Positions 3,464 through 23,856 of a stretch of DNA of 64,000 bases are shown piece by piece (the stretch's first letter is position 1; each line of letters begins with the position of its first letter). Under the pieces are notes generated by a model. It saw only the letters and a program-made list of their open reading frames with translations. It was not told where the DNA came from and searched no databases. The DNA is from a virus. Its lineage: Duplodnaviria > Heunggongvirae > Uroviricota > Caudoviricetes. The DNA is taken from IMG/VR virus record IMGVR_UViG_3300036768_001066; one strand, given 5' to 3'. A program made the translations under genes and the position numbers.

Positions 3464-4156
3464 TCAGATTCCTGCGTTCCAGGCCTTCTTCTTAGATTTC
3501 CTCTTGGACTTGCGGTCGCCGAGGTTGGCCATCTGCATTATTTTCTCCCTGGCACGAATAATCCTGGTCTTGACGGTGTTAAGCTCAAGACCGTATTTTG
3601 CGGCTATCTCCTCGTACTGCATCTCGTGGACCTCCCTGTCAATTATGATGTCCTTGTAGTGCGCGGGCAGTTTGTTCATCTGTTCCATCACGCTCTGGTA
3701 CAACGCGTCAGTAACGTCTTCTGGAGATAACATCGGGTCTATCTCGTCTGGCATTGAGATCAGTCCCTCATGATCGATACCGTTATCGATGAGCATGAAG
3801 TCCGGCGAATCCTCAAAGCTGCTGCCTATAAACTTCACGCAGTTCTCGAGCGATACTGTCGAGAGCTGCTTCTTCTTGCGTATGTACTGCATGGCCTCGT
3901 TGCGAGTGACGCGGTATGCCCACGTCGAAAAGCACCAGCACGGCTTGTACGTGTCTATTCTCGACCACATCTTTACGAATGCGTCGGCCACCACGTCGTT
4001 AGCGGCGTCGAGGTCTTTGAGAATGTTGTTTGCGTAGTTGGTCAGTCCAGGGCGTATCCTCTCGAATAAGTTTCTGAAGTCCCTCTCACTCCTCGTCTCG
4101 ATGTACTTAAGCGCGAGCTCATTTATCGAGACCAATCTGATCTCTAAATTCTCCAT
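3464..4156 (-). CDS. ECF-type (group 4) RNA polymerase sigma factor
   Basis: Region 2 FSTWAYRVTRNEAMQYIRK and region 4 HTH EIAAKYGLELNTVKTRIIRAREKI; basic C-terminal tail. Confidence 0.7.
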   Translation of the reverse strand: MENLEIRLVSINELALKYIETRSERDFRNLFERIRPGLTNYANNILKDLDAANDVVADAFVKMWSRIDTYKPCWCFSTWAYRVTRNEAMQYIRKKKQLSTVSLENCVKFIGSSFEDSPDFMLIDNGIDHEGLISMPDEIDPMLSPEDVTDALYQSVMEQMNKLPAHYKDIIIDREVHEMQYEEIAAKYGLELNTVKTRIIRAREKIMQMANLGDRKSKRKSKKKAWNAGI

Positions 4157-4168
4157 TGAAATTGTCTT

Positions 4169-4459
4169 TTAATTTTTGTACGAACCTAATGTTAAGCGCA
4201 CCAGTAGAATGAAACACAAAGATTGCCAGTAATCCAGCGGGTACTCTGGAACCACAACGCCGGCCAGTAACTTCACAACGAGAGCCTCTCCAAATAAGGA
4301 CAGCACCGCTACGAGCAAGCGAGTGAGCGCTTTCGCGATACCCTGTTTATGCTCTGCTATTGCCTGTTCCTTAATCTCCTTTGGCGTTGGTTGGTTTGAC
4401 TCCGAGCCATTGCCCTGTACGGCCTTAACCGAATTGAGTAAGTCATTAAATTGCTTCAT
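4169..4459 (-). CDS. Small membrane protein (96 aa)
   Basis: ORF track; C-terminal transmembrane stretches. Confidence 0.4.
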   Translation of the reverse strand: MKQFNDLLNSVKAVQGNGSESNQPTPKEIKEQAIAEHKQGIAKALTRLLVAVLSLFGEALVVKLLAGVVVPEYPLDYWQSLCFILLVRLTLGSYKN

Positions 4460-4461
4460 GA

Positions 4462-5040
4462 TTATATGTGTATGTTTGTTTTCTTAATAGTGTAAGTGTT
4501 CTCGATGTGTAGCTCAAGCTGGTCCACTCGCACACCGTTGTTTCTCAGGAAGTCGATCCCTGCGACATCGGAGTGCTCCTTATCATAAACCACACGTGAT
4601 ATTTTAGAACGGAGAATGAGCTTGCTGCAGTCCCGACACGGGGATAGTGTTATGTACAGGGTAGCGCCCTCGCACGAGTTTGGTGTGTTTGTGAGCTTGA
4701 GAATGGCGTTGGCTTCTGCGTGTATGACCTCCCACTTGGTCTCGCCTGCTGCATCCTCGCAGCAGTTGTCCATACCGGACGGAGTGCCGTTGAAACCGTC
4801 GGATATTATCATGTTATCCTTTACGATTAACGCGCCTACCTGCTTGCGCTTGCAGTGAGAGTTCTCGGCCCATACGTGGGCCATCCTCATATATGAGATG
4901 TCATATTTAGCTGATTTCATCAGAGTCTTCCTTGGGGATTTATTATACCGCACAGATACGAAATGTTTCGGCTCTGTTGTTTTGTGGGTTTCGGAAGGCC
5001 TCTGTGGGCCCGGAGTTGCAGACAGAATATCTACGCACAT
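4462..5040 (-). CDS. dCMP deaminase (cytidine/deoxycytidylate deaminase family)
   Basis: HAEANAI ... PCRDCSKLI zinc-binding H-A-E / P-C-x-x-C motifs. Confidence 0.85.
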   Translation of the reverse strand: MCVDILSATPGPQRPSETHKTTEPKHFVSVRYNKSPRKTLMKSAKYDISYMRMAHVWAENSHCKRKQVGALIVKDNMIISDGFNGTPSGMDNCCEDAAGETKWEVIHAEANAILKLTNTPNSCEGATLYITLSPCRDCSKLILRSKISRVVYDKEHSDVAGIDFLRNNGVRVDQLELHIENTYTIKKTNIHI

Positions 5041-5094
5041 CCGAACGATCTAATATAACAAGAAATGTTCCTCCGAAGATGGAAGTGGAATAAA

Positions 5095-8000
5095 TTATTT
5101 ATCGGTGACCTTAAGCGTGCCACTGAGTTTAGTATCTATGTCCTCGAGCATATTCAACTTATTCAATTTAGTTAAAATATCTTCGAGCAACTGCTCCATA
5201 CGGGCAGTCGAACCTGTAGCAATTGGTGCGGTGCCTGGATTGGCAGGAGTTTTAGTGTTGGTTACATTCTTAGTTCCACTTTGGTTCGTATTTGAAGTAG
5301 GTGCAGGCGTCGGTGGGGTAGGTGGCGTCTGCTTCTTCTCGCCGTTCTTCTCGTAAATGTACTGGATGAGCATCTTGCCCTTATCCGATAGCGCGTTGAG
5401 CGCGTTAGGATCGGCCTTCGCGAACGTGGTGAGCGACTGGATGAGCATGGTCGAGTTCTTCAGCGTCATCTGGTCCATCTTCTTGAACGTCGCGCCAAAC
5501 TTGTCCATGGTCTTAGCTATCTTGTCGAACGACTTGGCGAGCCTGTCCATAGGGTCGGCAGTTCCGGCCAGACGCTCTATGTACTCTACGGCCTTCTGGA
5601 AGTGTGAGTAATCGGTATCCGGCTTTATAGATGAGAACGCGCCGATGAGTTGCGTCACGGCGTTGCTTATTATCGCGCCTTCCTTGTCCGTTATCTTCTT
5701 CTCGGCAACCTTAGCGAGGGCATCTATGATGGAACCGATAGCGTCCATCATGTTGGAAATAGAGGCGCCGGTCTTCATTAGAGAAGCCCTGTTCTTGTCT
5801 ATTATCTCAGCCGCACCAAGCATGGCCTGCGGTATGAGAATGAGCGTGCGCTTGATGTTCTGCTCGACAACATCAAAGTTCTGTACGGTGGCCACGGATT
5901 GCACCATCTGTGCGATACCGTTGAGGTCGCCAGATACGCCCGCGATCGCTTGCTTGCCTTTCTCTATGTCGGAATCCACGAACCAGCCGGACTGTGCGGC
6001 TTCGCCGGAACCAATCTCTCCGAGAGCGCTTGTCACGGACCTGATCATCGCAACTATGTTACGATAAACCGAGCCGCCCTTCTCGAGCATCTTAGGGTCT
6101 ATGGTGGTCTTGCCAATTTCTTTGCCGTCCTTGTCGTAGATAGGGAACGTCAGGTTGGCGGCCTTCTGCACGAAGTCCGCGAGGCCGACGAGGTCTTGTC
6201 CTATCCCGCGGATAGCGTCGGCACCCTTCTCTCCGTCGCTCTTGCTGAACCATCCAACTTCGCCCTGTCCCTTTCCTATCTCGGTCAGCGTTCCCACGAC
6301 GGCGTTGATTATCTTCTTCATGTTGACGGACACCTGGTCGAATGTCTTGTCACCAATTGTTATGTACGAGGTAACGTTACCGTTTTTATCGTAAATAGGT
6401 ATCTTGAGCTCCGCCATCTTGGCGACGCCGTCCGCTATAGACGAAAGAACATTGCCGACATCCGACACGGCCTCTATGCCGTCCTCTACATCGTCCCAGT
6501 CAACGGACTCCCCGTTGCCAACGTTTATCAAGCACTCGGCAACTGTCGTCAACACGGTGGTGACCATGTCGCCAATCTTGTTGATGTCTATATTCTTCTC
6601 GACTATCTGGACAAACTTGGACAAGCCTGTACCTATTGTGATGAGCCCGATACCCGCCATTATCCACGCCGGCACCGCGGCGTAGAGCTCCATCAATCTG
6701 AATGGACCCATTACCATACCATCTATGATGGCGTCGAGCGTGTATTCAAAGTTGGATACGTCCGGGTCCGTAGCGCTCGGCTTGAACAGTCCTGAGTCCT
6801 TAGTCTTCTTCCATACGAGGTTGAACAATGCTATACCGCCAGCGAGCGTTACGAGGGACACGGACGCTACTATCAAAGCAACGGCGCCGAGCATCATGAA
6901 CACCGACTTCACTGGGTTGATGTAGAACGCCTCGACCACGCTTCCGACCACGAAGTCGAGGTTGGTCTGGTAATCCTCGTTGGTGCTCTTGGCGAGGACA
7001 CCGTCCATCGCCTTCTTGTAGAGCGCGTTCATTACGAATAAACCGCCAGCGAGTGTCACGAGAGCTATCGATGCGAACATCAAGGCGACGGCTCCTATCA
7101 TCATGAACACGGCCTTTACCGGGTTGATGAAGAACGCGTCCACAACGCTGCCTATGACAATGTCGAGGTTCGTCTGTTCCGGATCCGCCGTTGATGGAGC
7201 GAGTATTCCGTCCATGGCCTTAACGTACATAGTGTTCATGACAGCGAGACCGGCGGACAACGATATGAGAGCGACTCCGGCAACTATCAATGCGACGGCT
7301 CCGAGCAATATCAGTGGAGACAACAGTCCAGCGAGCATAAATGCACCTGCGGTGACCGCGACGGCTCCGCCCGCTGCGAGATAATCCGCAGTCTCTATTC
7401 CAAACAACCTGAACGCACCAATGCCGAGCGCGAGCGCTATGAGCGCGAGACCTGCCATCGCGAGAGGTATGACACCGGCTTCTATGAGAGAGCCGAATAT
7501 ACCGGCTATACCGAACGCAATACCGAGTATCGCGACGGCTCCGGCTGCCACGAGCACAGTGCCGAACGAAATATTGAACGCCTGGAATATAGCAAGACCT
7601 ATGCCCAATGCTATTATGGCGAGACCCATCCAAGCTACGGCTTTTGCACTCTTCTGTATCGGGTCGGCAAATTCGCTTATTATGTAAAATGTTATGCCGA
7701 ATAGTGCGAGTGCGCCTACGACTATCAAGCTGGCTACTGCGAGGTCCTTCCAGCTTCCGCCTACCAGCGTTTTTGTTATCCAGAGCGCGAGCCCGAACGA
7801 TGCGATGGCGAGGCCCATCCATGCTACAGCTTTGGCCCCCGCGTCGATCGCAGGTGCGGCCTTTCCTATTAGACTGAACACGTATGCGAACGCCGCTATT
7901 GTAGGTATGACTATGAGCGCGCCAAGCGCGGCTATTAAGTACACAGGCGCCGCGAGCGCGAGCGTCAATCCGAATATAGCAATAGCACCGGCCATCGATG

Positions 8001-13206: not shown

Positions 13207-15900
13207 TTATGCGAACACTGCGAATCCCCCTGAAGATACACCGCCGGTCTTAACAATAGTCACACGGTTGATGAACTTGTGGATACCACGAGCGGGCTCG
13301 ATAATCACGTCTATGATACCGATGTTCTGGTCGATGATCTCGTTCGTGTTGTTGGACGTGTCCATGATTACAGCGAAGTCGTAGATACCGCCTGCCGACT
13401 GAACACCTTCGAGGTAGTTGTCAACCTTGGTCTTGATTTCGAGACGCGTAGCGGGATCGTTGAACTCGAAGAGGTACCTCTCGAGGATAGCCTCGACGTC
13501 GGTCTCTATCGTAACGAGCAAGTCGCGTACGTGGAGATTGTTGAGCGCAGAGTTTACCCTCTGGAATCCGGTCTGGTTTCCGAAGATCTGCACGCCCTGT
13601 CCACGCTTGCGGATGATCGGGTTAAATCCGAACGGCTCCAGGTTCTCGCGGTCTTCGTCAGAGAACTCGTACTCAACACCGACCAGGTTAGGGTCGGAGA
13701 TGATACCGCGCCTTGAACCGGCGACGATAGCGTACGGAGTTCCGGCTATGAACTTCTGTATGAAGTTGTTCGATACGTGGGCCGAAGGCGGAACCGAAAG
13801 GTTCTTGCCGTTGATCCTGAGTATGAGGTTCGGCGAGAAGAATCCGCAGTACTTGTTACCAAGTTCTTCGTCCGGGAGCGAGTAAGTGAAGCTCGGGTTG
13901 AGGCTCAAGTTACCACCCTGTGCTATGTACAGCGTGTTGAGAACCGGTTTAGGGTTCGACGCAGTAGGAGCATCGGTGAACCTTGGGTCAGTGCTGTCGA
14001 GGAACTCCTTCATAGAAGGTGTGTTCAACAGCGCGATACACTTCTGGCGGTCCTTAGCGAGCTTAGACAGCCTCGACTTAGAGTTAGGCTCGAGACCGTG
14101 ATTGAACGTGTCTACGATGTAACGGAAGTCGATTGCGTCCTTGCTCTTGAGGGTCTTTGCAAGATTGGTGTTGTAAAGAACGTCAAGTATCTCGTTCATC
14201 CTCGAGCCAGAGCCGTTAGGCATGTGGGTCTCCTTGAGGGTGAATCCTTGTAGGTAGTAGTACTGAAGCTCCTTAACGTAATCCTGGATCCTCTGGAACC
14301 TCTGGATACGGTTTGAAGCGTAGAACTTGAGTGGCTGGTTTGCGGTGACGCGAACGTTGCCCGCTATGTCGTACTTGGCCATCTTCACGATCCTCGTGAG
14401 GCGCGTGCCAGACGAATCGACCAACAGGTCGCCGACCTTCATCTTAGCAGCGTCTGCAGCTGAGATGATTGCCTCGTTTGAGCCGAGTGCCGGCTTAGAT
14501 GGATCTGAACTTAGCGTGTCGAAGAACTCGTTGTAGTTGCCGTAAAGCGATACAATGTTGAGGTTGGTAGCGACGAGCGAGCCCGAAGTGTTGTACGAAG
14601 TACCGAACAGCGCGATGTTCTCCTGAGACAGGAATGTGTCGCTGTCGTATGCGCGAACTTCCACGTACGGATCGCCGAGGCTATCTGTACCTGCGAAGAA
14701 CTTGAGGAACTGCTTAGTTCCGAAAGCATCCTTAATGATATAGTCGCCATCAGTGATAGTTCCAGTCTTCCAGTCGTTGTAGATGTCGCTTCCTTCTGGA
14801 GCGATTATCACGTCGAATGGCGAGCTGTACACTATGTACGACGGAGAGTAGTCCGCGTATTCATAATCATTAACAAGCGGTGCCTTGTAAGAAAGGAACT
14901 CGAAGCTCCTCTGCAGAGATACCGCGGCATCGATGAGGTGGTGACCCACGAGATCAATCTGGCTTGAGTTGTTTTCTATATCGTCGAGTGCCTTCTTGTT
15001 GATAGACACGAAGAGTCCGCTGACTGCAGTCGTGTTGTTAACGAGGGTCTCGATGAACTGATTAACACCATTCTTATCCTTGAAGTCAGGAATCAAACAT
15101 CCAGTGATCTTAGCCACCAGAGAAATCTCCGGCAGAGATAGGAACTGGTCGAGGAACTCCTTCTTGAAGCCCTTAGCGTTGAAGTACTTGCTGTACACCG
15201 GGTCGATAGACAGGGCAGCAAAGTCAGTCCAGTTTCCTTCGATGGCGATAACGTCGACGAAGTAGTCGTTGATGTAATCGTTATCGTCGAGGAATGCTGG
15301 TCTCTCCTCGGTGGTACCTGCGTACCATTCTTTAACCGTAAGGTCATATCCCTTTATGTCGGATTTCTTGGTTATCACCGAAAGAGGTGTCTTACCGAGG
15401 TTAGTGATGTGGAAGAACTTAGGCTGATCCGCCACAGACACAGTCGCCTGGAAGTATTCAGTATCAGGGAACCAGAAGCGCTCCTTGTTGAAGAACGAAG
15501 AGTACAATCTCGGAGTAAGAACGCCGTTGATTTCTTCTGTATCGATAGAGAAAGACTTGTAGTTGATCTTGTCCGAGTTATCCGGAGAAGTCTCGGTATC
15601 GTCGTTGAGTGCAAGGAGGTTCAGGGCGAACACCGGGCCTGTTGCAAGGCAGGTGAACAATGCTCTGTGGAAGAACGAACCTTTACGCTCGAGCTGCGAA
15701 TCAATATCGCCGAACACTGTCCTGGCGGTCTTGATGTCCGGGCAGAATACCGGGCTGTTGAAGGGACCCTTCTTCGAGAAACCAACAACGAGACGGATAG
15801 TCTGCGGTGTTACGAAAATGTTCTCACTCGCGTCGAATTCAAGAGTGTAAACTCCACTTGCTTTGAATCTGCTGAGGTCCAGTTTAATCTTTTGTGCCAT
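13207..15900 (-). CDS. Tail sheath protein (gp18-like, 897 aa)
   Basis: N-terminal GVYTLEFDAS...GPVFALNL and C-terminal sheath-like domain; followed by tube gene; terminator after stop. Confidence 0.8.
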   Translation of the reverse strand: MAQKIKLDLSRFKASGVYTLEFDASENIFVTPQTIRLVVGFSKKGPFNSPVFCPDIKTARTVFGDIDSQLERKGSFFHRALFTCLATGPVFALNLLALNDDTETSPDNSDKINYKSFSIDTEEINGVLTPRLYSSFFNKERFWFPDTEYFQATVSVADQPKFFHITNLGKTPLSVITKKSDIKGYDLTVKEWYAGTTEERPAFLDDNDYINDYFVDVIAIEGNWTDFAALSIDPVYSKYFNAKGFKKEFLDQFLSLPEISLVAKITGCLIPDFKDKNGVNQFIETLVNNTTAVSGLFVSINKKALDDIENNSSQIDLVGHHLIDAAVSLQRSFEFLSYKAPLVNDYEYADYSPSYIVYSSPFDVIIAPEGSDIYNDWKTGTITDGDYIIKDAFGTKQFLKFFAGTDSLGDPYVEVRAYDSDTFLSQENIALFGTSYNTSGSLVATNLNIVSLYGNYNEFFDTLSSDPSKPALGSNEAIISAADAAKMKVGDLLVDSSGTRLTRIVKMAKYDIAGNVRVTANQPLKFYASNRIQRFQRIQDYVKELQYYYLQGFTLKETHMPNGSGSRMNEILDVLYNTNLAKTLKSKDAIDFRYIVDTFNHGLEPNSKSRLSKLAKDRQKCIALLNTPSMKEFLDSTDPRFTDAPTASNPKPVLNTLYIAQGGNLSLNPSFTYSLPDEELGNKYCGFFSPNLILRINGKNLSVPPSAHVSNNFIQKFIAGTPYAIVAGSRRGIISDPNLVGVEYEFSDEDRENLEPFGFNPIIRKRGQGVQIFGNQTGFQRVNSALNNLHVRDLLVTIETDVEAILERYLFEFNDPATRLEIKTKVDNYLEGVQSAGGIYDFAVIMDTSNNTNEIIDQNIGIIDVIIEPARGIHKFINRVTIVKTGGVSSGGFAVFA

Positions 15901-15978: not shown

Positions 15979-18900
15979 TCAACTCATGAGCCCCGACAAG
16001 AAGTCTGAGTCGTAACTTTTCTGCGGCTCATCCCTCGTACTCGTCAGCTTGTTTGTGATAAGCGTCCTGTACTTCTCATCGAGTCCATCGTATATATTCT
16101 CCACAATCTCGTAATACTGGTCCGAAGAGAAAAAAGGTACGAGATTTACCATGGACATAGCAATGTCGTCATGCCCTATCTGGCTCGAATACGAGCCTTT
16201 CTTGTCCAATCCGAAAGACATCAGCTCGTTGAACGTGTTCTTCTCGCAAGGTATAATCCTTCCGGATCTCACCAAGCGCCTGAATTCCATGCAGTACTCG
16301 TACTTGTTCTTAGGGTTCAGCTTGATGCCAGGGAGCATCCTCTTGGCATTCTCCGAGTGCTTGGTGTGTATGAACATGTCCTCGTAGAACTTGGTGTGGT
16401 TGCTCATGCGCTCGTACAGGAGGTTGCCCTTGAAGTCCATCTCGAGCACTATCTTGACCGCGTCCTCTCCAAACACGTCGTACAGAAGAGTCTCCACAAT
16501 AGGCTGCAGGTCCTCTACGCCGGCCTTATTAGACCTGAACATTCCCACCTGGAGCAAAGACATGAAGTCGCCCTCATCATTTGCGGTGAGCTGCTGCTCT
16601 ATCATCTTCTCCGGCATCGGCACAAGCTTAAAGATGTTCAGTATGGTGTAGTCACCTCCCCCACCTCCGGCCGTATCTATTGTGAAAACGAACCTGTCCG
16701 TATCCTTTATCGTATCAAGATTGAACTTGGGGTGCCACTTGAGGTGCTCGTAGTTGATCTCCTTGTTGTGCAAATCGGTTATCTCGTGCCACACGAATTC
16801 TGTGGTGAGTCTCTTGACCTGACCAAGCGTCTTGTGGTCCAATAATAATTTGGATGACGCGAGGAACTGACAGTTGTGTACCGCACGACCCTCCACGAAA
16901 TAAGAGTTGTCCACCTCGACCTCCAGATTGTAAACCGTGCCGAAATATGGGTATTTTTTCGCAGCTTTGACCTGTCCGGACACGCTTAGTTTGTGGCACC
17001 TTATCCTGCTCTTCTTGTTATCGTTATTAGACGTGGCTTTGTTTATCCGCAATTGGTGGGCTTCATTGGCGAAAACATCTCGGCCGACCACTTTACGGAT
17101 GCCGGATTTATTACCAAACGTTATACTGCATGTATATCCGAGAGCATGCGATAACAATTGCAACTGATAAGCCAACGTGTATGAAACTGTAGTATACCCG
17201 TCGTGCGTCTTGTTCTTATAAAAACCGTCGCCATTTATCAATGTATCATACACGATTTGTTCGTGCCCGGCTATTAACTCAAAGGGTATTTTTTTTTCTA
17301 AAGCTCCAGCTCCGCAGTTTTTAACAAAAAACTCGACAAGGTCGGCATCGTTAACAATTATTTCGGTAGAATTATCCCTGACACGTACATGCACCTTACC
17401 CGAAGATACAGTAGCAAGGCACCGTAGGATCTGGTCCCTGAACCCCGTCTCTTCTTTATGTAAGCCGAAACTGACCTGCGATTTGCGGGCGCATCCCTTG
17501 GCTATGTACCAACCAATCAACAACGCCATATCTTCCGATATGACCTTGGATTTTTTTAGAAGTGGCTTGGCATAACACAGCCAATCTTCTGTACGTATCG
17601 AATCCGCGGAGGTCCACTCGTATCTACGACCTTCCAATACCGTCCGTATCGGGTGTTCGTTTGTGCATTTTATAGGCCGGTTATTCCCGTACGAATAGAG
17701 CTCGTGCAGTTCCCCGTCATACACGCGCTCCGACACCACCTTGACTTTATGGTAGCGATTTGAATGTGTGAGGACTAAATCGCCGGGGTGTATGTCTCTA
17801 ATTGGTTTCACTCCATCGATTGTAGTAACCAAGCTATCACCTGTAAAACATCCATATTCCTGATTGAAGTCCTCCTCCGAACCGAGGTTGCCTATCTCAC
17901 GCCTCATCCACGCCTCATCCCTTCCGGGCACCTGCCACCAGTCTATTCGTATAGGCTTGAACTCGTTCTTGCCCTCGAGCGCGGCGGTGTATATGTCGTA
18001 GAACTTATTCATACCGTTCGGCGTGGACGTTATGACCACCCTTGATATGTTAGACGACGAGAGCGTCGGGTATACGGACCGCCAGAACGGGTCTATGAAG
18101 TTCTGGTGTATGTGAGCAAACTCATCACAGTACAGGAAGTGAATGGCGAAACCGATGGCCGCTGTCTTGGTAGTGTTACGTCCAAAGAGCCTGCACCCAT
18201 TATCGAACTTCATGGTCATCTGGTTGTTCAGTATGATACCAGGCTTCAGGAAAAACGGAAGGTTCTGCAGTATGACCTTTATTTTATCTATGATCTCTAT
18301 GGTGGTAGCTCCCGTATTGGAGAGCACCATAAGGTTCTTGTCAGAGTGGAACAGCAAGTACCACGTAAGGAATATGCCTGTGGTTATAGTATTGTGGGTC
18401 GGAATAAAATGGTCGGTTAAGTACAGATGGTCTTGGTTGTCAACCATTATGCACTGAACGTCTTCATGCCCGTCTAATTCAACAGAAGCTATCCCGCGCC
18501 TGCGACCCCAATCATAATGCTTATCCCGTATAAGGCGTTGCTTTCTGTCCAGCCTGAATATAGGATATGCGAATCCATTCGGGAGCATCAGTTTCAACCT
18601 GTGTGCAGGCAGGCAAGCCACTCGCGTGCCATCCTCTTTGCGGTATCCAGTTTCCTTGACAGAGCGGCACACAACTATGCCGAGGGATTCACACAATTGT
18701 TGTACATCGTCGGCCAACCTCGGCGACGAAGTGGTAAACACTACATTGGACTTTTTAGTAACGTGTCCATTGGTATCCATCAGACCTTGTAATAATGATA
18801 GCCTCTGCTGTATAGAACCATATAAATATATTTCGGGTATGAATTTATGTTCGGACCTCTTGCCCATTAGCCCTAACGATTTTAGCTCCGTTATGACCTC

Positions 18901-19809
18901 ATTTGTGTATCCTGATTTTTTGGTAACAAAATACGCATATCTGTCATGACCATTTTGTTTAATGCACACATCATGTGCTTCGCATACTTCGTTGTTCAGG
19001 TATTCTACTATTTGTGAGTCGGCGCTGGCCACATTTAGATACTTATTTGACATGCAGCCATCTCCGAGCATAAGTCCGAGAAAATATGGGTCTATATTAA
19101 AATCTGCCTCGGGAAAATTTACCGGTTCAGATGTTCGGACAAACCACTTATAATCCCCGCGCTTTGACAGAAGTCCTTTAGATACTATCTCGCGTAGCTC
19201 CAGTGTTTTTTCGGTTCCATCTACGGTCTCTACTGTCCACAGGTGCTCGCCGCAAGACCTGACAGTGGACCCGTCTGAAAATGTTATATTGTATACATCT
19301 CGCTTACCTTGCGGGAATATGCCAACCACGCTGGTTAGGTTGCCAGAGGCATCGTATATTTTATCGCCTAAAAGAAGGTCGCCGAACCTTGCCTTGCCAG
19401 TAGATTTCCAGACAATTGCGTCCAAGGGCTGAGCTTTTCCCACCTGCCTTGGGGACAGGAACACGCAGAACCTCGAGTCCTGAAAATCCCTGAGTACGTC
19501 CTCCTGGTAGTCACGCAGCTTAATGTTCTTTACGCCTTCATCCGTCATGGAGAAGCAGTAGTTGTTGGCGAAATATATGACGTCCCTCGCGCAGCGCTGT
19601 ATCTCTTCCATCTCCTCCACTGTATACTCGTATACTATATTGGCAGAGCGCCACTCGGGCTTGCCGTCCCAGAATGGAGTAGACTTAACGTCGACACCCG
19701 CGTCTATGTTCTCGAGAAGCTCATTTACCTTCTCGGTGGTCCATACCTGCGACAGGTTCTTGACGTTCTGTTCCTCGTGCTGCTTCTTGTATCTGTTATT
19801 TTCTTCCAT
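15979..19809 (-). CDS. Terminase large subunit (T4 gp17-like) interrupted by two inteins; spliced product ~602 aa
   Basis: Exteins give Walker A SPRQVGK|TITTG, DNGCRLFG, Walker B FLYCDEFAHI, VVITSTPNGMNKFYDIYTAALEGK and a nuclease domain; closely resembles gp17. Confidence 0.9.
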   Translation of the reverse strand: MEENNRYKKQHEEQNVKNLSQVWTTEKVNELLENIDAGVDVKSTPFWDGKPEWRSANIVYEYTVEEMEEIQRCARDVIYFANNYCFSMTDEGVKNIKLRDYQEDVLRDFQDSRFCVFLSPRQVGKAQPLDAIVWKSTGKARFGDLLLGDKIYDASGNLTSVVGIFPQGKRDVYNITFSDGSTVRSCGEHLWTVETVDGTEKTLELREIVSKGLLSKRGDYKWFVRTSEPVNFPEADFNIDPYFLGLMLGDGCMSNKYLNVASADSQIVEYLNNEVCEAHDVCIKQNGHDRYAYFVTKKSGYTNEVITELKSLGLMGKRSEHKFIPEIYLYGSIQQRLSLLQGLMDTNGHVTKKSNVVFTTSSPRLADDVQQLCESLGIVVCRSVKETGYRKEDGTRVACLPAHRLKLMLPNGFAYPIFRLDRKQRLIRDKHYDWGRRRGIASVELDGHEDVQCIMVDNQDHLYLTDHFIPTHNTITTGIFLTWYLLFHSDKNLMVLSNTGATTIEIIDKIKVILQNLPFFLKPGIILNNQMTMKFDNGCRLFGRNTTKTAAIGFAIHFLYCDEFAHIHQNFIDPFWRSVYPTLSSSNISRVVITSTPNGMNKFYDIYTAALEGKNEFKPIRIDWWQVPGRDEAWMRREIGNLGSEEDFNQEYGCFTGDSLVTTIDGVKPIRDIHPGDLVLTHSNRYHKVKVVSERVYDGELHELYSYGNNRPIKCTNEHPIRTVLEGRRYEWTSADSIRTEDWLCYAKPLLKKSKVISEDMALLIGWYIAKGCARKSQVSFGLHKEETGFRDQILRCLATVSSGKVHVRVRDNSTEIIVNDADLVEFFVKNCGAGALEKKIPFELIAGHEQIVYDTLINGDGFYKNKTHDGYTTVSYTLAYQLQLLSHALGYTCSITFGNKSGIRKVVGRDVFANEAHQLRINKATSNNDNKKSRIRCHKLSVSGQVKAAKKYPYFGTVYNLEVEVDNSYFVEGRAVHNCQFLASSKLLLDHKTLGQVKRLTTEFVWHEITDLHNKEINYEHLKWHPKFNLDTIKDTDRFVFTIDTAGGGGGDYTILNIFKLVPMPEKMIEQQLTANDEGDFMSLLQVGMFRSNKAGVEDLQPIVETLLYDVFGEDAVKIVLEMDFKGNLLYERMSNHTKFYEDMFIHTKHSENAKRMLPGIKLNPKNKYEYCMEFRRLVRSGRIIPCEKNTFNELMSFGLDKKGSYSSQIGHDDIAMSMVNLVPFFSSDQYYEIVENIYDGLDEKYRTLITNKLTSTRDEPQKSYDSDFLSGLMS
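16873..17850 (-). other. Intein 2 in terminase (326 aa, LAGLIDADG homing endonuclease domain)
   Basis: Starts CFTGDSLVTTIDG, ends YFVEGRAVHN followed by extein C; LAGLIDADG motifs LLIGWYIAKGC and DTLINGDGFY. Confidence 0.8.
18391..19434 (-). other. Intein 1 in terminase (348 aa, LAGLIDADG homing endonuclease domain); inserted between Walker A Lys and Thr; first residue Ala
   Basis: Starts AQPLDAIVWK, ends HFIPTHN followed by extein T; LAGLIDADG motifs DPYFLGLMLGDGC and LSLLQGLMDTNGHV; removal restores GKT. Confidence 0.8.
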
Positions 19810-20806
19810 TGTACAAGTCTTCCAGTTTCTTTATCCTGGACTTCAGTTCTTTTATCTCGGACTCGAGCCACTCCTTGGTTGGTAGCTCCAGCATAGTGTC
19901 CACATCGTCCTCGGTTATCTTAGCTCCGACCGTGTTCTTTGCCGACCACTGCAGTCCGTACTCCATGTTGAACTTATCCTCCGAGCCGAGGTTGAGTATC
20001 TCATTGCGTTTCCAGGCCTCGTCCCTGCCCGGCACGAGGTTCCACAAATACCTCAGCGGCTTGAACTCGTTGGCCTCGTCTTCAGCTTTTACGAAGAGAT
20101 CGTAAAACCAGTTGTATCCGTTCGGCGTCGATACAACGATCACCCGGCAGTCCTTGCCCTTCGCCATGTGTGGTGCAATGCTCCTGAACACCTTATGCGC
20201 GTCCTTTATGAGTCCAGCCTCATCCATGAATATGAAATTTGTCTGACCACCAATCGGCACATCCGGAGTGGCGCCCTTTGCAACTATTCTGCACCCGTTG
20301 TCGAATTCTATCGACTTTGCGTTCCACGATATTATGCCGGGTTTCATGAAGAACGGCATACTTGCGTAGAGCGCTTTTACCTTGTCTATAAAAGCCGCAG
20401 CCCCCTCGTTATTGACAGTGAGGTACAGGAACATTTTGTCAGAATACGTGGTCGCATAATGCAATGCTATTATCGCCCCGAGCAAGGTCATGCCCATCTG
20501 CCGAGACTTGGCGACCACCACAAACTTATAGAACTCCGTGTGCTGTATGAAGTCTTTCTGGTAGTCGTAGAGTTTTATTTTACCAAGGGTAGGTGATAAT
20601 ACTGGCGAATTGAATCCGAGATATTCGACAAACATCATTGGGTCGCCTATGGAACCCATTATGTCACGCTCTTTATCAGTGAGATGAAAATCGAGATTAG
20701 CCTTTCTTAGGTTTACGTCGCCCCTGTAGTAGGGAGTCTCTTTGAACATGGAGTCATTACCATGCAGTTCCGACCTCAAAAAGTCGATAATTCTTGTGTT
20801 CCACAT
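19796..20806 (-). CDS. Intein-free paralog of the terminase ATPase domain (336 aa, no nuclease domain)
   Basis: AKSRQMGMT Walker A, NGCRIVAKGAT, FIFMDEAG Walker B, VIVVSTPNGYNWFYDLF...NEFKPLRYLWNLVPGRDEAWKRNE parallels the adjacent terminase exteins; overlaps terminase start by 14 nt. Confidence 0.7.
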   Translation of the reverse strand: MWNTRIIDFLRSELHGNDSMFKETPYYRGDVNLRKANLDFHLTDKERDIMGSIGDPMMFVEYLGFNSPVLSPTLGKIKLYDYQKDFIQHTEFYKFVVVAKSRQMGMTLLGAIIALHYATTYSDKMFLYLTVNNEGAAAFIDKVKALYASMPFFMKPGIISWNAKSIEFDNGCRIVAKGATPDVPIGGQTNFIFMDEAGLIKDAHKVFRSIAPHMAKGKDCRVIVVSTPNGYNWFYDLFVKAEDEANEFKPLRYLWNLVPGRDEAWKRNEILNLGSEDKFNMEYGLQWSAKNTVGAKITEDDVDTMLELPTKEWLESEIKELKSRIKKLEDLYNGRK

Positions 20807-20836: not shown

Positions 20837-21415
20837 CTATAGGGAAAAATTTTCGAGGAACATAAACGCGCACTGCCTGGCACTAAGACCGGCCGTTTCT
20901 ATGACCATGTCTGGGTCCTTTGGGACCTCGTACGGCGAGTCTATCCCGGTGAATCCCTTTATCTCACCCGCCCGGGCTTTTTTATACAGGCCTTTCGGGT
21001 CGCGGTCCTCGCACACGTCGAGCGAAGTGGACACGAATACCTCGAAGTAGTCCTTACCAATGATGCTGCGTACCATCTGACGGTCCGTCTCGTACGGGGA
21101 TATGAAGCAGGCGAATACTATTATGCCTGCGTCGTTGAACAATTTGCAAGTCTCGGCTATTCGCCGCAGGTTCTCCTTCCTGCCCTCGGGAGAGAACCCA
21201 AGCCCGGAGCACAGTCCCATTCTAACGTTGTCGCCGTCGAGTATGTACGTTGCGTAGCCACTCTCGTTAAGAGTCAACTCTATGTTGCTCGCTATTGTCG
21301 ATTTACCGGAACCGGAAAGTCCGGTAAACCAGATGGTCCTACCTCTCTGGTTGAGCACCATCTCCCGGTCCTCTCTCCTCACCAGGTGATTGTGTGGGTG
21401 AATGTTTTCTTTCAT
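20837..21415 (-). CDS. cysC: Adenylylsulfate (APS) kinase
   Basis: WFTGLSGSGKSTIA, LDGDNVRMGL, FISPY..DR, RDPKGLYKKARAGEIKGFTGIDSPYE match CysC nearly motif-for-motif. Confidence 0.85.
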   Translation of the reverse strand: MKENIHPHNHLVRREDREMVLNQRGRTIWFTGLSGSGKSTIASNIELTLNESGYATYILDGDNVRMGLCSGLGFSPEGRKENLRRIAETCKLFNDAGIIVFACFISPYETDRQMVRSIIGKDYFEVFVSTSLDVCEDRDPKGLYKKARAGEIKGFTGIDSPYEVPKDPDMVIETAGLSARQCAFMFLENFSL

Positions 21416-21679
21416 GTTTGATTCCCCAGTTTATTTTGTACCATACGCGCTCGTGCACATAGATAGTATTATTTTATAGTCTCGAACCCACTCACGAGCG
21501 CTCCGTACTTGAGCTCCTCCGTTATTATCCATGTCAGGAACAACATGTCGAGAGACCCGATATGCGTCACGTCACTGCCTTGGCGAAGTGGATCTACAAA
21601 TTCCCTCCCCATAGATGTTCTATGGTTAAATTATCATCAAAATCTATATCTCTTATCATGCCAATTATTATCTGCCATG

Positions 21680-22429
21680 TCACTTTATTATTTGTATTTG
21701 GGATGGGTCCCATACGACTATCTCGGACACCTCGTCTATCGGCGTCTTGTCTCCGTCCTTGCCGACGACGAAGATCCCGTCGTATCCGTTCTTCTGTAGT
21801 AATTCGTGAAAGTTCCAGCGGCCGAGCTTTTGGATAACCCAGTTGGCGAGGCCACCGTCAAATTCAACGTCGGCCCTCATATCGTTGAATCGCACCACAG
21901 CAAGCTCCTTGTACCCTTCAAGTATGTCCTTCTTGGCAGCATCTTCCTTTTTCAGATAGATGCTCGGACCGTACACCTCGTCGTCAGTGCCCCACAGTTC
22001 TTTTTTGGGAACAACTGCTATCTCGACCACTTCGTCGTGGTTTGTATCGCGTACGGTCAGTTCAAATCCTTCGGGAATCTCCTTGTTCGGCTTGAAGTAC
22101 GACGGCACGCCTTTGAGTTTGGATAGATCCTCTCTTAGGTAAATCTCCTCGTAGCTGCCAAGCATCGACCATGTGCGAAGATAGAACGGGTTTTTAACAT
22201 CGAGGTTTGCCTCGATGACGCGTGATCCGTACTCGCGGGCATAGTCCTTGTCAATGGTGAAATAGAACCCTCGTCCATAATAACCCTCGTCGGTCTGCCC
22301 CATATATGAGGCGTCGAACTTGTCGAACTTGGAATTGGTGCCGTGATACACGGTCAATAGTTGTCCGTTCTTCGATACCTTAGAATTATCGAAACTCCTG
22401 AACTCGTTTATGTCCCTCAGGTGCTTCAT
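21680..22429 (-). CDS. PARP-like ADP-ribosyltransferase (H-Y-[E] class catalytic core)
   Basis: VYHGTNSKF ... YGRGFYFTIDKDYAREYG parallels the PARP LLWHGSR ... FGKGIYFAD ... S..Y signature. Confidence 0.5.
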   Translation of the reverse strand: MKHLRDINEFRSFDNSKVSKNGQLLTVYHGTNSKFDKFDASYMGQTDEGYYGRGFYFTIDKDYAREYGSRVIEANLDVKNPFYLRTWSMLGSYEEIYLREDLSKLKGVPSYFKPNKEIPEGFELTVRDTNHDEVVEIAVVPKKELWGTDDEVYGPSIYLKKEDAAKKDILEGYKELAVVRFNDMRADVEFDGGLANWVIQKLGRWNFHELLQKNGYDGIFVVGKDGDKTPIDEVSEIVVWDPSQIQIIK

Positions 22430-22540: not shown

Positions 22541-23365
22541 TTATCCGAAGTATTCATCATCTAAATCAAAGTGGTCCTCGTCTTCGTTCTTATTTGCGTC
22601 CTTGTCCTTCGGTGTTACGTCAGCCAGAGGGTTGACTGGCCTTGCTCCAGGATCGGTCAGGCGCGGTTTCTCCTCCTTCTTGTATTCGAACTTGGCGTCC
22701 TCGATAAGCTTGGTCTGTATGGTCTCCATGAGGTTCTTCGTGCCCCTTACCTTCACCGGTCCGTCAAGCTTGTCTATAGTTTCCTCCTGTGGTTTGGCAT
22801 TGCGCATCTCCTCAACCACAGTATTGTCGTGCTGCTGCTTCTTGTAACCCTCCTCGAGAGTTACCATGTATGCGGCCTGGTGCTTGATTGTCGACATCAA
22901 CTGATTGTTGAGCGTGGCGAGCGCCTCGAAATTTCTCGGGTGCGTGTTGCCCATGTCTATGTCCTCGAGCAGCTTTATCATGGCCAGCTGCGTGAACTTC
23001 AGGGAGAACATTATCGACGACAGCGCCATCTCGTCTATCTTCTTCTTGGCGAGAACGTAGTCGTTCTTCTTTATGTACTTCTGGTCAACGTAGAACTTCA
23101 TGACCGAGTTGAGCACCTTCTTAGCCTCCTTCTCCAGCTGCACGCGCTCGGCATGTATGTTCATGGGCTCGGAGTTCGGGTGGTCAATCTTGTCGAGCGT
23201 ACCGTCCGGATCTCCGTCAAGGTCCATACCCTTGACCTGCTTGACCGCGACCGAGTTCGGGTTGGCATTCGCCGGCGACTTGGGCGTGGTGTTGACCCCC
23301 ATGTTGTTCATGATGGCCTCAAGGTTCGCCTTGATCTTCTCCTGAACATCTTTCTCTTTACTCAT
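22541..23365 (-). CDS. Hypothetical acidic protein (274 aa)
   Basis: ORF track. Confidence 0.5.
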   Translation of the reverse strand: MSKEKDVQEKIKANLEAIMNNMGVNTTPKSPANANPNSVAVKQVKGMDLDGDPDGTLDKIDHPNSEPMNIHAERVQLEKEAKKVLNSVMKFYVDQKYIKKNDYVLAKKKIDEMALSSIMFSLKFTQLAMIKLLEDIDMGNTHPRNFEALATLNNQLMSTIKHQAAYMVTLEEGYKKQQHDNTVVEEMRNAKPQEETIDKLDGPVKVRGTKNLMETIQTKLIEDAKFEYKKEEKPRLTDPGARPVNPLADVTPKDKDANKNEDEDHFDLDDEYFG

Positions 23366-23856
23366 GGCTTCAATTTTATTAGTGTTTCGTGACCGTCCGC
23401 ATTCGTGAACCGCATCAAATCTATAGTAATTTTAGGCATACTGAATGCAAGATTACTGTACTTCCATCCTGTGCCTTTATTTATATATGCTATCGTCATG
23501 TGAGGATTATACTCATGGTCGATTGTGCATGGGAACTTCTTCTTTATCTTGTCGTGGTACGTGTGCAAAACCTTACAGTTAACGCCGAACTTCAGCACGT
23601 CGAACCTCGGGTCCGAGTCGAACAAACTGACCGGCAAGAACTCTATTTCTGTCTGCCTGCATATAGTATCCAGATACAGCATCATGTCGAGCGGATTCTC
23701 CACTTGGTGCACGCCGTATAGGACTGTTATGTGAGGATATAAGCTAAGCCCATGGTCACCGTCCGGATCGTAAACATCGTCTTGATCTACGTGCATTAGT
23801 ACCTCGGACCATCCCCTCAAGGGGACGTTTAACATAACACATCCATATTGTCTCAT
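23362..23856 (-). CDS. 2H phosphoesterase (LigT / cyclic phosphodiesterase / Acb1-like)
   Basis: Two H-x-T-x motifs: PHITVLYG and PHMTIAY. Confidence 0.65.
   Translation of the reverse strand: MRQYGCVMLNVPLRGWSEVLMHVDQDDVYDPDGDHGLSLYPHITVLYGVHQVENPLDMMLYLDTICRQTEIEFLPVSLFDSDPRFDVLKFGVNCKVLHTYHDKIKKKFPCTIDHEYNPHMTIAYINKGTGWKYSNLAFSMPKITIDLMRFTNADGHETLIKLKP

What the first reader, a model, noticed from the sequence alone, without database searches (positions are those of the whole stretch)
19796..20806. Intein-free paralog of the terminase ATPase domain immediately upstream of the intein-containing terminase
The 336-aa protein has its own Walker A (AKSRQMGMT) and Walker B (FIFMDEAG) and the VIVVSTPNGYNWFYDLF...EFKPLRYLWNLVPGRDEAWKRNE block. 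It parallels the terminase exteins at roughly 35-40% identity but lacks the nuclease domain, and overlaps the terminase start by 14 nt. This could be a divergent tandem duplication, a decoy or auxiliary packaging ATPase, or a relic linked to intein homing. Tandem terminase ATPase paralogs are not a standard T4-like feature.
Basis: seen in the sequence. Interest (0 to 1): 0.6.

Follow-up and report, generated by a model that had tools for sequence, protein, structure and literature searches.

The report
Catalytically dead terminase ATPase paralog
Just upstream of this jumbo phage's DNA-packaging enzyme lies a real, conserved gene for a shortened copy of that enzyme's motor domain; the copy has lost the lysine needed to use ATP, so it probably works by binding rather than by pumping DNA.

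Summary
The ORF is real: 19796..20806 (-), 336 aa. It overlaps the TerL start by 14 nt and resembles the TerL ATPase domain (42% identity over 184 aa, E 5e-45). It has no nuclease domain.

- **Walker A is degenerate.** The motif is SRQMGMT, where T4 gp17 has SRQLGKT. All nine orthologues (36-100% identity) lack the lysine, and five of the nine also lack a canonical Walker B.
- **It is not linked to inteins.** The same paralog-TerL pair, with a 14-nt overlap, occurs in three relatives whose TerL has no intein.

The gene belongs to a wider metagenomic family of short TerL-N-like proteins. Of 267 collected sequences, 51 lack the lysine. A few members keep GKT/DE, one is a tandem fusion, and several stand alone.

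A gp16-type TerS candidate lies upstream at 22541..23365, so the paralog does not replace TerS.

The gene evolves about 3-12 times faster than TerL. Two genomes with 99-100% identical flanks carry alleles only 66% identical, yet pN stays well below pS.

Best reading: a non-catalytic accessory protein of the packaging module. An immune-decoy role remains possible. Function is untested.

The parts
19796..20806 (-). CDS of the 336-aa paralog: a TerL ATPase-domain copy with no nuclease domain and a degenerate P-loop
   Evidence: ORF list. Pfam Terminase_6N E 2e-11. Family profile vs T4 gp17 2o0h/3cpe, E about 1e-55. AF2 model pLDDT 87.5; Foldseek top hit T4 gp17 ATPase, TM 0.73, rmsd 2.5 A.
20669..20806 (-). 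Residues 1-46 (MWNTRIIDF...FKETPYYRGD..LRKANL..LT..E), the most conserved block of the orthologue set
   Evidence: 16 invariant columns among 9 orthologues. The first ~75-100 nt of the ORF (within 20700..20806) stay near-identical between the swapped alleles of L009 and L002.
20558..20569 (-). YDYQ. Y82 and Q83 are invariant and align with the YQ of T4 gp17 (LRDYQ)
   Evidence: That this is the adenine-contact motif in gp17 is my recollection of the gp17 literature, not tested here.
20486..20506 (-). Degenerate Walker A, SRQMGMT: Met in place of the P-loop Lys; Arg and Gly are kept
   Evidence: Aligned to T4 gp17 SRQLGKT. The Lys is absent in all 9 orthologues and in 51 of 267 collected TerL-N-like proteins.
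20213..20236 (-). Walker B-like FIFMDEAG. D-E is present here but not conserved among orthologues
   Evidence: DE in 4 of 9 orthologues, DQ or DN in 4, FE in 1.
20117..20134 (-). VSTPNG, the TerL motif III (coupling motif) region, conserved
   Evidence: S226, N229 and G230 are invariant.
19955..19966 (-). MEYG, the last residues homologous to TerL. This is the ATPase/nuclease domain boundary, which in this TerL is also the insertion site of intein 2
   Evidence: The BLASTP alignment ends at EYG|L versus EYG|C. The intein-free relatives read NQEYGCQFLASS.
19886..19954 (-). Variable, low-confidence linker (residues 285-307)
   Evidence: pLDDT below 50 for residues 291-298. Poorly conserved.
19799..19882 (-). 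C-terminal amphipathic helix PTKEWLESEIKELKSRIKKLEDLYNGRK. It has a heptad-like L/I spacing and no counterpart in TerL
   Evidence: Helix 311-332, pLDDT 85-91. Conserved in P0001-P0009, L015, P0126/P0128 and at the end of the tandem fusion P0121.
19796..19809 (-). 14-nt overlap between the paralog stop and the TerL start (ATGGAAGAAAATAA), suggesting translational coupling
   Evidence: The same 14-nt overlap occurs in L002, L003 and L009; it is 11 nt in L008.
15979..19809 (-). TerL, 1276 aa with two inteins; 602 aa once spliced, with intact SPRQVGK|T, LYCDEFA and TSTPNG
18391..19434 (-). Intein 1 (348 aa, LAGLIDADG type), inserted in the P-loop between GK and T. It begins with Ala
   Evidence: Absent from L002, L003 and L009; present in L008, L097 and L098.
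16873..17850 (-). Intein 2 (326 aa), inserted between EYG and CQF
   Evidence: Pfam Hint_2 / Intein_splicing. Boundaries from comparison with intein-free TerLs.
22541..23365 (-). 274-aa gp16-type small terminase (TerS) candidate of the same packaging module
   Evidence: A profile of its clade hits an ORF at E below 1e-10 in 96 loci; in the dozens of T4-like loci inspected, that ORF ends just upstream of TerL. Members hit PHROG 735 'terminase small subunit', E 5e-6 to 8e-5. hhalign vs T4 gp16 gives E 0.003 over the HPRxFE..L segment.
20837..21415 (-). APS kinase gene. Variable cargo between TerS and the paralog
   Evidence: Pfam APS_kinase E 6.5e-66. Same position in L002, L003 and L009.
21680..22429 (-). 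ART-PolyVal-type ADP-ribosyltransferase-like gene. Variable cargo between TerS and the paralog
   Evidence: Pfam label on the orthologues in L002, L003 and L009. Mosaic identity pattern.
13207..15900 (-). Tail sheath gene following TerL (gp18 position)
   Evidence: Orthologues carry PF17482 Phage_sheath_1C.

Best explanation
The ORF is a functional gene for a TerL-derived pseudo-ATPase. It consists of a complete T4-type TerL N-terminal (ATPase) fold, a short linker and a C-terminal amphipathic helix. It has no nuclease domain, and its catalytic P-loop lysine has been lost.

**What is shown**
- It belongs to an old family of nuclease-less TerL-N paralogs found in metagenomic contigs that include several of 150-720 kb.
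- In this clade it sits inside the packaging module: TerS candidate, variable cargo genes, paralog, TerL, sheath.
- Its stop codon overlaps the TerL start.
- The gene is under purifying selection but behaves as a fast-evolving, recombining accessory gene.

**What is inferred**
- It is probably made together with TerL late in infection.
- It most likely acts by binding rather than by hydrolysing ATP. The helix may let it self-associate, and its retained TerL-like surfaces may let it contact a partner that TerL's ATPase domain also contacts (TerS, portal, TerL itself or DNA). In that way it would modulate terminase assembly or activity.
- It is not an intein-homing relic, not a second motor ATPase and not a TerS substitute.

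The confidence value applies to the whole statement. The identity claims are strong (about 0.85). The binding or regulator mechanism is weak (about 0.35).
For: **Identity and fold**
- Pfam Terminase_6N only.
- The family profile matches T4 gp17 at E about 1e-55, with SRQLGKT aligned to SRQMG(M/L/F/I/T)T.
- AF2 model pLDDT 87.5, pTM 0.80, with helix 311-332. Foldseek top hits are T4 gp17 ATPase structures (TM 0.73, rmsd 2.5 A).

**Catalytic degeneracy is conserved**
- 0 of 9 orthologues have the Walker A Lys. Walker B is DE in 4, DQ/DN in 4 and FE in 1.
- 51 of 267 collected TerL-N-like proteins lack the Lys; most are 284-339 aa.

**A real, selected gene**
- The frame is intact and the start (MWNT...) conserved down to 36% identity.
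- pN is 0.13-0.38 against pS 0.71-0.86 in all pairs. dN/dS is about 0.11 for L009-L002, with dS near saturation.

**Independent of inteins**
- Same gene and overlap next to intein-free TerLs in L009, L002 and L003, and next to a one-intein TerL in L008.

**Part of the packaging module**
- The overlap with TerL is 14 nt in 4 genomes and 11 nt in 1.
- A TerS candidate lies upstream. In L008 the order is TerS, paralog, TerL.
- A T4-type late-promoter string, TATAAATA, lies 113 nt upstream of the TerS candidate. This is weak evidence.

**Self-association hint**
- The helix has heptad-like spacing.
- P0121 is a natural tandem fusion of two Lys-less domains ending in the same kind of helix.

**Old family**
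- The paralog never pairs with its own TerL; the smallest clade holding both averages 147 of 244 sequences.
- 50 of 51 Lys-less proteins fall in one NJ clade. At least 45 of them grouped in 49 of 100 bootstrap replicates, and at least 40 in 71 of 100.
Against: - No interaction, expression or activity was measured. The binding-partner idea is inference.
- More distant family members stand alone, kilobases from any TerL: P0008, P0009, P0022, L015 and apparently P0006. Adjacency to TerL is therefore not a family trait.
- L009 and L002 have identical TerL proteins (99.3% nt), but their paralogs are only 66% identical. There is no sign of co-evolution with TerL.
- The gene's dN is 2.7-12 times that of TerL. 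This is unlike a core subunit and similar to the neighbouring cargo genes.
- Most T4-like TerL loci lack any such gene, so it is dispensable for packaging in general.
- The window protein still has D-E in Walker B, plus the invariant YQ and Arg. Nucleotide binding or residual activity cannot be excluded.
- Some family members keep GKT and DE (L015, P0126, P0128).
- The monophyly of the Lys-less set may owe something to long-branch attraction. The core of P0009 is 50% identical to a bona fide TerL of a 640-kb phage.
Confidence: 0.55

Rival explanations
1. The paralog is a conflict protein. It would be a TerL ATPase-domain mimic that interferes with host sensors of the large terminase (Avs1-3, Upx), as a decoy or inhibitor. 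Alternatively it acts in competition between phages. Its rapid turnover would reflect an arms race.
For: - The allele was replaced between otherwise 99-100% identical genomes (66% aa identity).
- Its dN is 2.7-12 times that of TerL.
- It sits in a variable cargo stretch next to an ART-PolyVal gene.
- Family members are scattered in non-packaging contexts.
- Loss of catalysis fits a pure binding role.
Against: - No sensor or host is known for this phage.
- EcAvs2 contacts the ATP bound in the terminase active site (PMC13601566). A Lys-less pocket may bind such sensors poorly.
- There is no gross signal of positive selection: pN stays well below pS.
- The neighbouring cargo genes (APS kinase, ART) show similar divergence to L003. 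Fast divergence may simply mark accessory status.
- I found no published example of a terminase decoy.
Confidence: 0.2
2. The paralog replaces the small terminase (TerS). It occupies the gene slot directly upstream of TerL and would use its coiled coil to oligomerise and regulate TerL.
For: - It is immediately upstream of TerL and overlaps it, as gene 16 does with gene 17 in T4.
- It has a C-terminal helix with heptad-like spacing.
- Pfam and PHROGs did not recognise a TerS among the near neighbours at first.
Against: - A gp16-type TerS candidate exists at 22541..23365 and in all relatives. In more distant relatives it is the gene directly upstream of TerL.
- In L008 the order is TerS, paralog, TerL.
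- The paralog has no similarity to any TerS family.
Confidence: 0.05
3. The paralog is a second, active packaging ATPase that works with or beside TerL.
For: - The TerL ATPase fold is complete, with YQ, Arg, D-E and motif III present in the window protein.
- A few family members keep GKT and DE.
Against: - The P-loop Lys is absent in all 9 orthologues, and no relocated Lys is conserved. K99 is present only in P0001-P0004.
- Walker B decays in 5 of 9 orthologues.
- From my recollection of the T4 literature, not tested here: substitutions of gp17 K166 abolish function.
Confidence: 0.05
4. The paralog is a decaying relic: a by-product of intein homing, a dead partial duplication of TerL, or an assembly artefact.
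For: - The homology to TerL stops exactly at the insertion site of intein 2.
- The catalytic residues are degenerate.
Against: - The gene is present with the same length and overlap next to intein-free TerLs.
- The frame is intact across orthologues down to 36% identity, and pN stays well below pS.
- It was assembled independently in at least 6 samples.
- The two copies share only about 40% amino-acid identity, so they cannot be a collapsed or duplicated assembly.
Confidence: 0.02

Closest known systems
T4-type large terminase (gp17) N-terminal ATPase domain (Pfam Terminase_6N; PDB 2O0H, 3CPE)
   Same: Same fold and clear homology (profile E about 1e-55; Foldseek TM 0.73). It shares the N-terminal segment, the YQ motif, the SRQ Arg, LPFF.KPG..WN....DNGC, motif III (STPNG) and the VPGRDE.W block.
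   Different: No nuclease domain. The P-loop Lys is replaced by Met. Walker B is not conserved across orthologues. It has an extra C-terminal helix. It evolves several times faster than the cognate TerL.
[quoted passage not shown]
   Same: A TerL-ATPase-like protein without a nuclease domain, encoded in addition to TerL in a T4-type phage. Its function is unknown.
   Different: No detectable pairwise or profile similarity to this family (BLASTP nothing below E 0.9; hhalign E 0.24). vs.8 is 219 aa, keeps GKS and IIDE, and is not in the packaging module.
Sinorhizobium phage phiM7 gp82 (and the same place in phiM19), annotated 'terminase large subunit'
   Same: A short TerL-N-like ORF lies between TerS (gp83) and TerL (gp81) and overlaps TerL by 4 nt. 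This is an analogous tandem arrangement in a cultured T4-superfamily phage.
   Different: It is 196 aa, truncated before motif III, and keeps GKT and IDE. It is 34% identical to its own TerL but only 26% to this paralog, so it is an independent event. It has no coiled-coil tail.
T4 gp16-type small terminase
   Same: The gene position directly upstream of TerL and overlapping it. A predicted helix that could oligomerise.
   Different: No homology. A separate gp16-type candidate is present at 22541..23365.
Lys-retaining members of the same short family (IMG/VR locus L015 5998..7008; P0126; P0128)
   Same: The same N-terminal signature (MIY.TKI.DFI...F.ETPFY), the same length class, and the same helix-rich C-terminal tail with no nuclease domain.
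   Different: They keep SRQVGKT and IDEAA and so may be active ATPases. L015 stands alone, away from any TerL.

Membership tests
Large terminase TerL (T4 type) | Terminase_6N ATPase fold | tested here: met
   Pfam E 2e-11. PDB profile search gives gp17 at E about 1e-55. Foldseek TM 0.73 to 2O0J/2O0H.
Large terminase TerL (T4 type) | Walker A with the invariant Lys (SRQxGK[T/S]) | tested here: not met
   The motif is SRQMGMT. The Lys is absent in all 9 orthologues.
Large terminase TerL (T4 type) | Walker B hhhhDE with a conserved catalytic Glu | tested here: inconclusive
   FMDE is present in the window protein. Among orthologues it is DE in 4, DQ/DN in 4 and FE in 1.
Large terminase TerL (T4 type) | C-terminal RNase H-like nuclease domain (Terminase_6C) | tested here: not met
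   No Pfam hit. Only 52 residues follow the ATPase domain, predicted as a linker plus one helix.
Small terminase TerS (gp16 type) | Homology to a TerS family | tested here: not met
   Pfam and PHROG hits are TerL families only. The gp16-type candidate is a different gene, at 22541..23365.
Small terminase TerS (gp16 type) | Gene immediately upstream of TerL | tested here: met
   14-nt overlap with TerL. However, in L008 the TerS candidate lies upstream of the paralog.
T4 vs.8-like proteins | Sequence homology to vs.8 and conserved Walker A/B | tested here: not met
   BLASTP best E 0.92. hhalign E 0.24. No Lys.
Intein-homing relic or pseudogene | Present only where the inteins are; disrupted frame or neutral evolution | tested here: not met
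   Present next to intein-free TerLs. Frame intact and pN well below pS.
Short Lys-less TerL-N paralog family (defined here) | About 280-410 aa; TerL-N fold; no nuclease domain; SRQxG followed by a non-Lys residue | tested here: met
   P0001 groups with P0002-P0008 and with the larger Lys-less set: 51 of 267 sequences, 50 of them in one NJ clade with moderate bootstrap support.
Immune decoy or anti-defence protein | Binds or blocks a host sensor of TerL | not testable with these tools
   No host or sensor is known, and no complex prediction tool was available. Only circumstantial evidence exists: allele turnover and the literature.

The most novel reading that the evidence does not exclude
The gene is a non-catalytic mimic of the terminase motor domain that the phage deploys against host immune sensors of the large terminase (Avs1-3 or Upx type). 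It would soak up or block those sensors while the real TerL works. That role would explain why the catalytic lysine is dispensable, why alleles are swapped between otherwise identical genomes, and why family members are scattered through accessory regions of jumbo and huge phages.
Probability: 0.17. Interest if true: 0.85.

Novelty: new variant of a known kind. Interest (0 to 1): 0.55.

Why it matters
TerL is the universal packaging motor of tailed phages and a prime target of bacterial pattern-recognition immunity. This finding is a conserved, widespread copy of its ATPase domain that has shed both the nuclease and the catalytic lysine. In one clade it is translationally coupled to the real TerL.

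I found no description of such a family in the library searched. It could be one of two things:
- a third, non-catalytic component of the packaging module, which would bear on how jumbo phages regulate terminase;
- a molecular mimic used in phage-host conflict.

Either would be new biology. The natural series makes the question directly testable: members that keep GKT/DE, Lys-less members, and a tandem-fused member.

The result also has a practical side. These proteins score as Terminase_6N or 'terminase large subunit', so they can be mis-annotated as TerL or distort TerL-based phylogenies of huge phages.

Tried and rejected
- **Intein-homing relic.** Rejected. Intein-free relatives have the same gene.
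- **Recent tandem duplication.** Rejected. The paralog is no closer to its own TerL than to other TerLs (33-38% to other TerLs; 42% and 26% for the two segments) and never pairs with it in NJ trees.
- **TerS substitute.** Rejected once the 274-aa ORF at 22541..23365 proved to belong to the family that occupies the gp16 slot in the T4-like TerL loci inspected, out of 96 loci with a profile hit.
- **Orthology with T4 vs.8.** Rejected.
- **A member in cultured or deposited phages.** tblastn of P0001, P0009, P0022, P0195 and P0141 against 50,697 phage records returned only TerL genes, all below 51% identity. The 'two TerL genes' of phiM7 are an independent, shorter, Lys-retaining case.
- **IMG/VR scan with the family alignment.** No close relatives, at most 36% identity. 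It did yield one Lys-retaining member, L015.
- **Metagenome scan with the TerL N-extein.** It found TerLs at 38-67% identity. None has a paralog within 5 kb.
- **Fused domains in longer Lys-less proteins.** Pfam found nothing beyond Terminase_6N.
- **Literature.** Searches for a terminase paralog, decoy or pseudoenzyme found no description of this family.
- **dN/dS.** Synonymous sites are saturated in nearly all pairs, so only pN versus pS and one rough ratio could be given.
- **Structure in PDB or Pfam for the TerS candidate.** No significant hit.


Full report
**1. The observation**

- The minus strand carries an ATG ORF at 19796..20806 encoding 336 aa. Its last 14 nt (ATGGAAGAAAATAA) are the first 14 nt of a 1276-aa ORF at 15979..19809.
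- The long ORF is a T4-type large terminase (TerL) interrupted by two inteins.
  - Intein 1 is 348 aa, of LAGLIDADG type, at window 18391..19434, inserted between GK and T of the P-loop.
  - Intein 2 is 326 aa, at window 16873..17850, inserted between EYG and CQF.
  - Removing both gives a 602-aa TerL with intact SPRQVGKT, LYCDEFA and TSTPNG.
- BLASTP of the 336-aa protein against this TerL gives 42% identity over 184 aa (E 5e-45) and 26% over the N-terminal 105 aa (E 3e-6). Intein 1 sits in the gap between the two segments.
- Pfam finds only Terminase_6N.
- The coordinates, the quoted peptide strings, the missing nuclease domain and the 14-nt overlap are therefore all correct.
- One point is not. 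The 'Walker A' is SRQMGMT, with Met where the P-loop lysine should be. In a profile alignment it lies column for column on T4 gp17 SRQLGKT.

**2. It is a conserved gene, not a relic or artefact**

A search of 5.8 billion proteins found the identical protein on record from two sources (JGI and Logan), the longest contig being 373,759 bp. It also found eight full-length orthologues of 320-339 aa at 78% down to 36% identity. All start MWNT.../IFNT... and have intact frames.

The contexts are as follows.

| Locus (orthologue, identity to the query) | Arrangement | TerL |
|---|---|---|
| L009 (P0002, 78%) | APS kinase, paralog, 14-nt overlap, TerL, sheath | intein-free, 602 aa |
| L002 (P0003, 64%) | same | intein-free, 602 aa |
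| L003/L004 (P0004, 59%) | same | intein-free, 601 aa |
| L008 (P0007, 49%) | paralog, 11-nt overlap, TerL | intein 1 only |

- The gene therefore predates the inteins in the window and does not depend on them.
- The similarity stops at EYG because that is the ATPase/nuclease domain boundary. Intein 2 happens to target the same spot.
- In all orthologue pairs pN (0.13-0.38) is far below pS (0.71-0.86). The one pair with a computable ratio gives dN/dS of about 0.11, with dS near saturation.

**3. It is a pseudo-ATPase**

- None of the nine orthologues has the Walker A lysine. The position holds M, L, F, F, I, F, T, L or I.
- Walker B is DE in four, DQ or DN in four, and FE in one.
- No alternative lysine is conserved nearby. 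K99 occurs only in P0001-P0004.
- Several residues stay invariant: Y82 and Q83 (aligned with the YQ of gp17), R102 and G105 of SRQxG, LPFFMKPG..WN.KS..F.NGC, S.PNG.N.FY, and an N-terminal block covering residues 1-46.
- The AF2 model is confident (pLDDT 87.5, pTM 0.80). Its best structural matches are the T4 gp17 ATPase domain structures (TM 0.73, rmsd 2.5 A). After a disordered linker it ends in one long helix, residues 311-332, with L/I at heptad-like spacing.

**4. The wider family**

- A profile of the nine orthologues was searched against 1.84 billion representative proteins. The top hits mix ordinary TerLs with many short proteins.
- Of 267 sequences collected, 51 lack the lysine. Most of these are 284-339 aa, Walker B is often decayed, and motif III is kept.
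- In NJ trees of the ATPase domain, with the lysine column masked for the bootstrap, 50 of the 51 fall into one clade with three short Lys-retaining proteins. At least 45 Lys-less proteins grouped together in 49 of 100 bootstrap replicates, and at least 40 in 71 of 100.
- The window paralog never pairs with its own TerL. The smallest clade containing both averages 147 of 244 sequences.
- Caveats apply. Long-branch attraction is possible. The core of P0009 is 50% identical to a genuine 712-aa, GKT-bearing TerL of a 640-kb uncultured phage. A single origin is therefore likely but not secure.
- Instructive members:
  - L015, P0126 and P0128 have the same N-terminal signature and helix-rich C-terminal tail but keep GKT and DE.
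  - P0121 is a tandem fusion of two Lys-less domains ending in the same kind of helix.
  - P0141 is on record from a 723-kb contig and P0125 from a 154-kb contig.
- Distant members stand alone, far from any TerL: P0008, P0009, P0022, L015 and probably P0006.

**5. Place in the packaging module**

- I first suspected a TerS substitute, because the gene occupies the gene-16 slot and no TerS was recognised among its neighbours.
- That idea fell. The 274-aa ORF at 22541..23365 belongs to a family that lies directly upstream of TerL in more distant relatives (L101, L102, L120).
- A profile of that family hits an ORF at E below 1e-10 in 96 loci. In the dozens of T4-like loci inspected (E 1e-34 to 1e-42), that ORF ends just upstream of TerL.
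- Members of the family hit PHROG 735 'terminase small subunit' at E 5e-6 to 8e-5. hhalign places the HPRNFEALATL segment on the SPRHMEVFATL segment of T4 gp16, E 0.003.
- The module therefore reads: TerS candidate, variable cargo, paralog, TerL, sheath. The cargo is ART-PolyVal and APS kinase, plus a CTP-transferase-like gene and DUF2061 in relatives. In L008 the order is TerS, paralog, TerL.
- A T4-type late-promoter string (TATAAATA) lies 113 nt upstream of the TerS candidate. There are 5 such strings in the window against 1.3 expected, so this is weak evidence.
- One independent analogue exists. Sinorhizobium phage phiM7 gp82 is 196 aa, keeps GKT and IDE, and is truncated before motif III. 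It lies between TerS gp83 and TerL gp81 and is 34% identical to its own TerL but only 26% to this paralog.

**6. Evolutionary behaviour**

| Comparison | Paralog | TerL | Sheath | TerS candidate | APS kinase | ART |
|---|---|---|---|---|---|---|
| Window vs L002 / L009, aa identity | 64% / 78.5% | 97% | 97% | 97% (L002 only) | not cited | not cited |
| Window vs L003, aa identity | 60% | 92.5% | 93% | 89% | 62% | 70% |

- The paralog's dN is 2.7-12 times that of TerL.
- Against L003 the paralog tracks the cargo genes rather than the core genes.
- The most striking case is L009 versus L002. They are 99.4% nt identical in APS kinase, 99.3% in TerL (protein identical) and 98.6% in sheath.
- Between those genes the paralog body is only 55-77% nt identical (66% aa), and synonymous sites are saturated.
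- Identity drops about 75-100 nt into the ORF and returns to 100% at the TerL start.
- This is replacement of one old allele by another through recombination, not rapid mutation in place.

**7. Mechanism**

*Shown*
- TerL ATPase fold.
- No nuclease domain.
- Conserved loss of the catalytic lysine.
- Purifying selection.
- Overlap with TerL.
- Membership of an old family.
- Accessory-like turnover.

*Inferred*
- The protein acts by binding rather than by ATP-driven work.
- Its C-terminal helix, and the natural tandem fusion, suggest self-association.
- Its retained TerL-like surfaces suggest it contacts something that TerL's N-domain also contacts.
- Its coupling to TerL suggests co-expression.

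My preferred reading is a non-catalytic accessory or regulator of terminase, at about 0.35 for that mechanism. The main rival, at about 0.2, is a conflict role such as a mimic against TerL-sensing immunity.
[quoted passage not shown] The allele turnover fits this.
- Against the rival: a Lys-less pocket may bind poorly to sensors that read the bound ATP, and nothing was tested.
- vs.8 itself is not related in sequence to this family.

**8. Novelty**

No phage record in the 50,697-genome collection holds a member of this family. I found no description of it in the literature searched. It is best filed as a new variant of a known kind: a TerL-derived, nuclease-less pseudo-ATPase. Its function is still to be established.

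Noticed in passing
window 18391..19434 (-): TerL intein 1 (348 aa, LAGLIDADG) sits inside the P-loop between GK and T. It begins with Ala (AQPLDAIV...) instead of Cys, Ser or Thr, which implies a non-canonical splicing class. The same Ala-start intein at the same site occurs in L008, L097 and L098. It is absent from the 97%-identical TerLs of L002 and L009, which suggests recent gain.
   Followed up: partly
window 16873..17850 (-): TerL intein 2 (326 aa; Hint_2 / Intein_splicing) sits at EYG|CQF and is found only in the window genome among the relatives examined. Pfam scored no endonuclease family for it. A LAGLIDADG-like string (LIGWYIAKG) is visible by eye.
   Followed up: partly
window 22541..23365 (-): This 274-aa ORF has no significant Pfam or PHROG hit of its own. 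By transitive profile evidence and synteny it is a gp16-type small terminase. It is separated from TerL by about 2.7 kb of inserted genes.
   Followed up: yes
window 20837..22429 (-); L002 7436..9970; L003 7543..9934; L009 292..2281: The stretch between TerS and the paralog is a variable cargo region holding an ART-PolyVal-like gene and an APS kinase. The relatives add a CTP-transferase-like gene and DUF2061, which the window lacks. Identities are mosaic: for ART, window-L002 is 95% nt but window-L009 is 78%.
   Followed up: partly
window 23478..23485 (-): A T4-type late-promoter string, TATAAATA, lies 113 nt upstream of the TerS candidate. There are 5 matches in the window against 1.3 expected.
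   Followed up: no
protein P0121 (612 aa; JGI contig of 2.4 kb): A natural tandem fusion of two Lys-less TerL-N domains (SSRQTGIS and VSRETGLT), ending in a coiled-coil-like tail.
   Followed up: partly
L015 5998..7008 (+) (IMG/VR 3300032753_002656, 61 kb); P0126; P0128: Members of the same short family that keep SRQVGKT and IDEAA. L015 stands alone among a GIY-YIG endonuclease, an RNA-ligase-like gene and other accessory genes, with no TerL within 5 kb.
   Followed up: partly
L014 4432..5022 (+) (Sinorhizobium phage phiM7 gp82): A 196-aa truncated TerL-N-like ORF (GKT and IDE kept) lies between TerS gp83 and TerL gp81 and is annotated as a second 'terminase large subunit'. It is an independent partial duplication. 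phiM19 shows the same two-place pattern.
   Followed up: partly
L123 2303..2920 (-) and 2965..5103 (+) (LR756502, 642-kb uncultured phage): The TerL of this huge phage (712 aa, GKT) is 50% identical to the Lys-less P0009. A TerS-like 205-aa ORF (…ARMHEVVNQ…) is encoded divergently next to it rather than co-directionally.
   Followed up: no
L005 11186..11785, L006 8511..9110, L007 3150..3749: In the P0009 loci the stand-alone paralog is followed by a sigma-70-like factor (Sigma70_r2 / r4_2). An NAD-dependent DNA ligase lies upstream in L005 and L006, and the cut gene at the start of L007 may be the same one.
   Followed up: no
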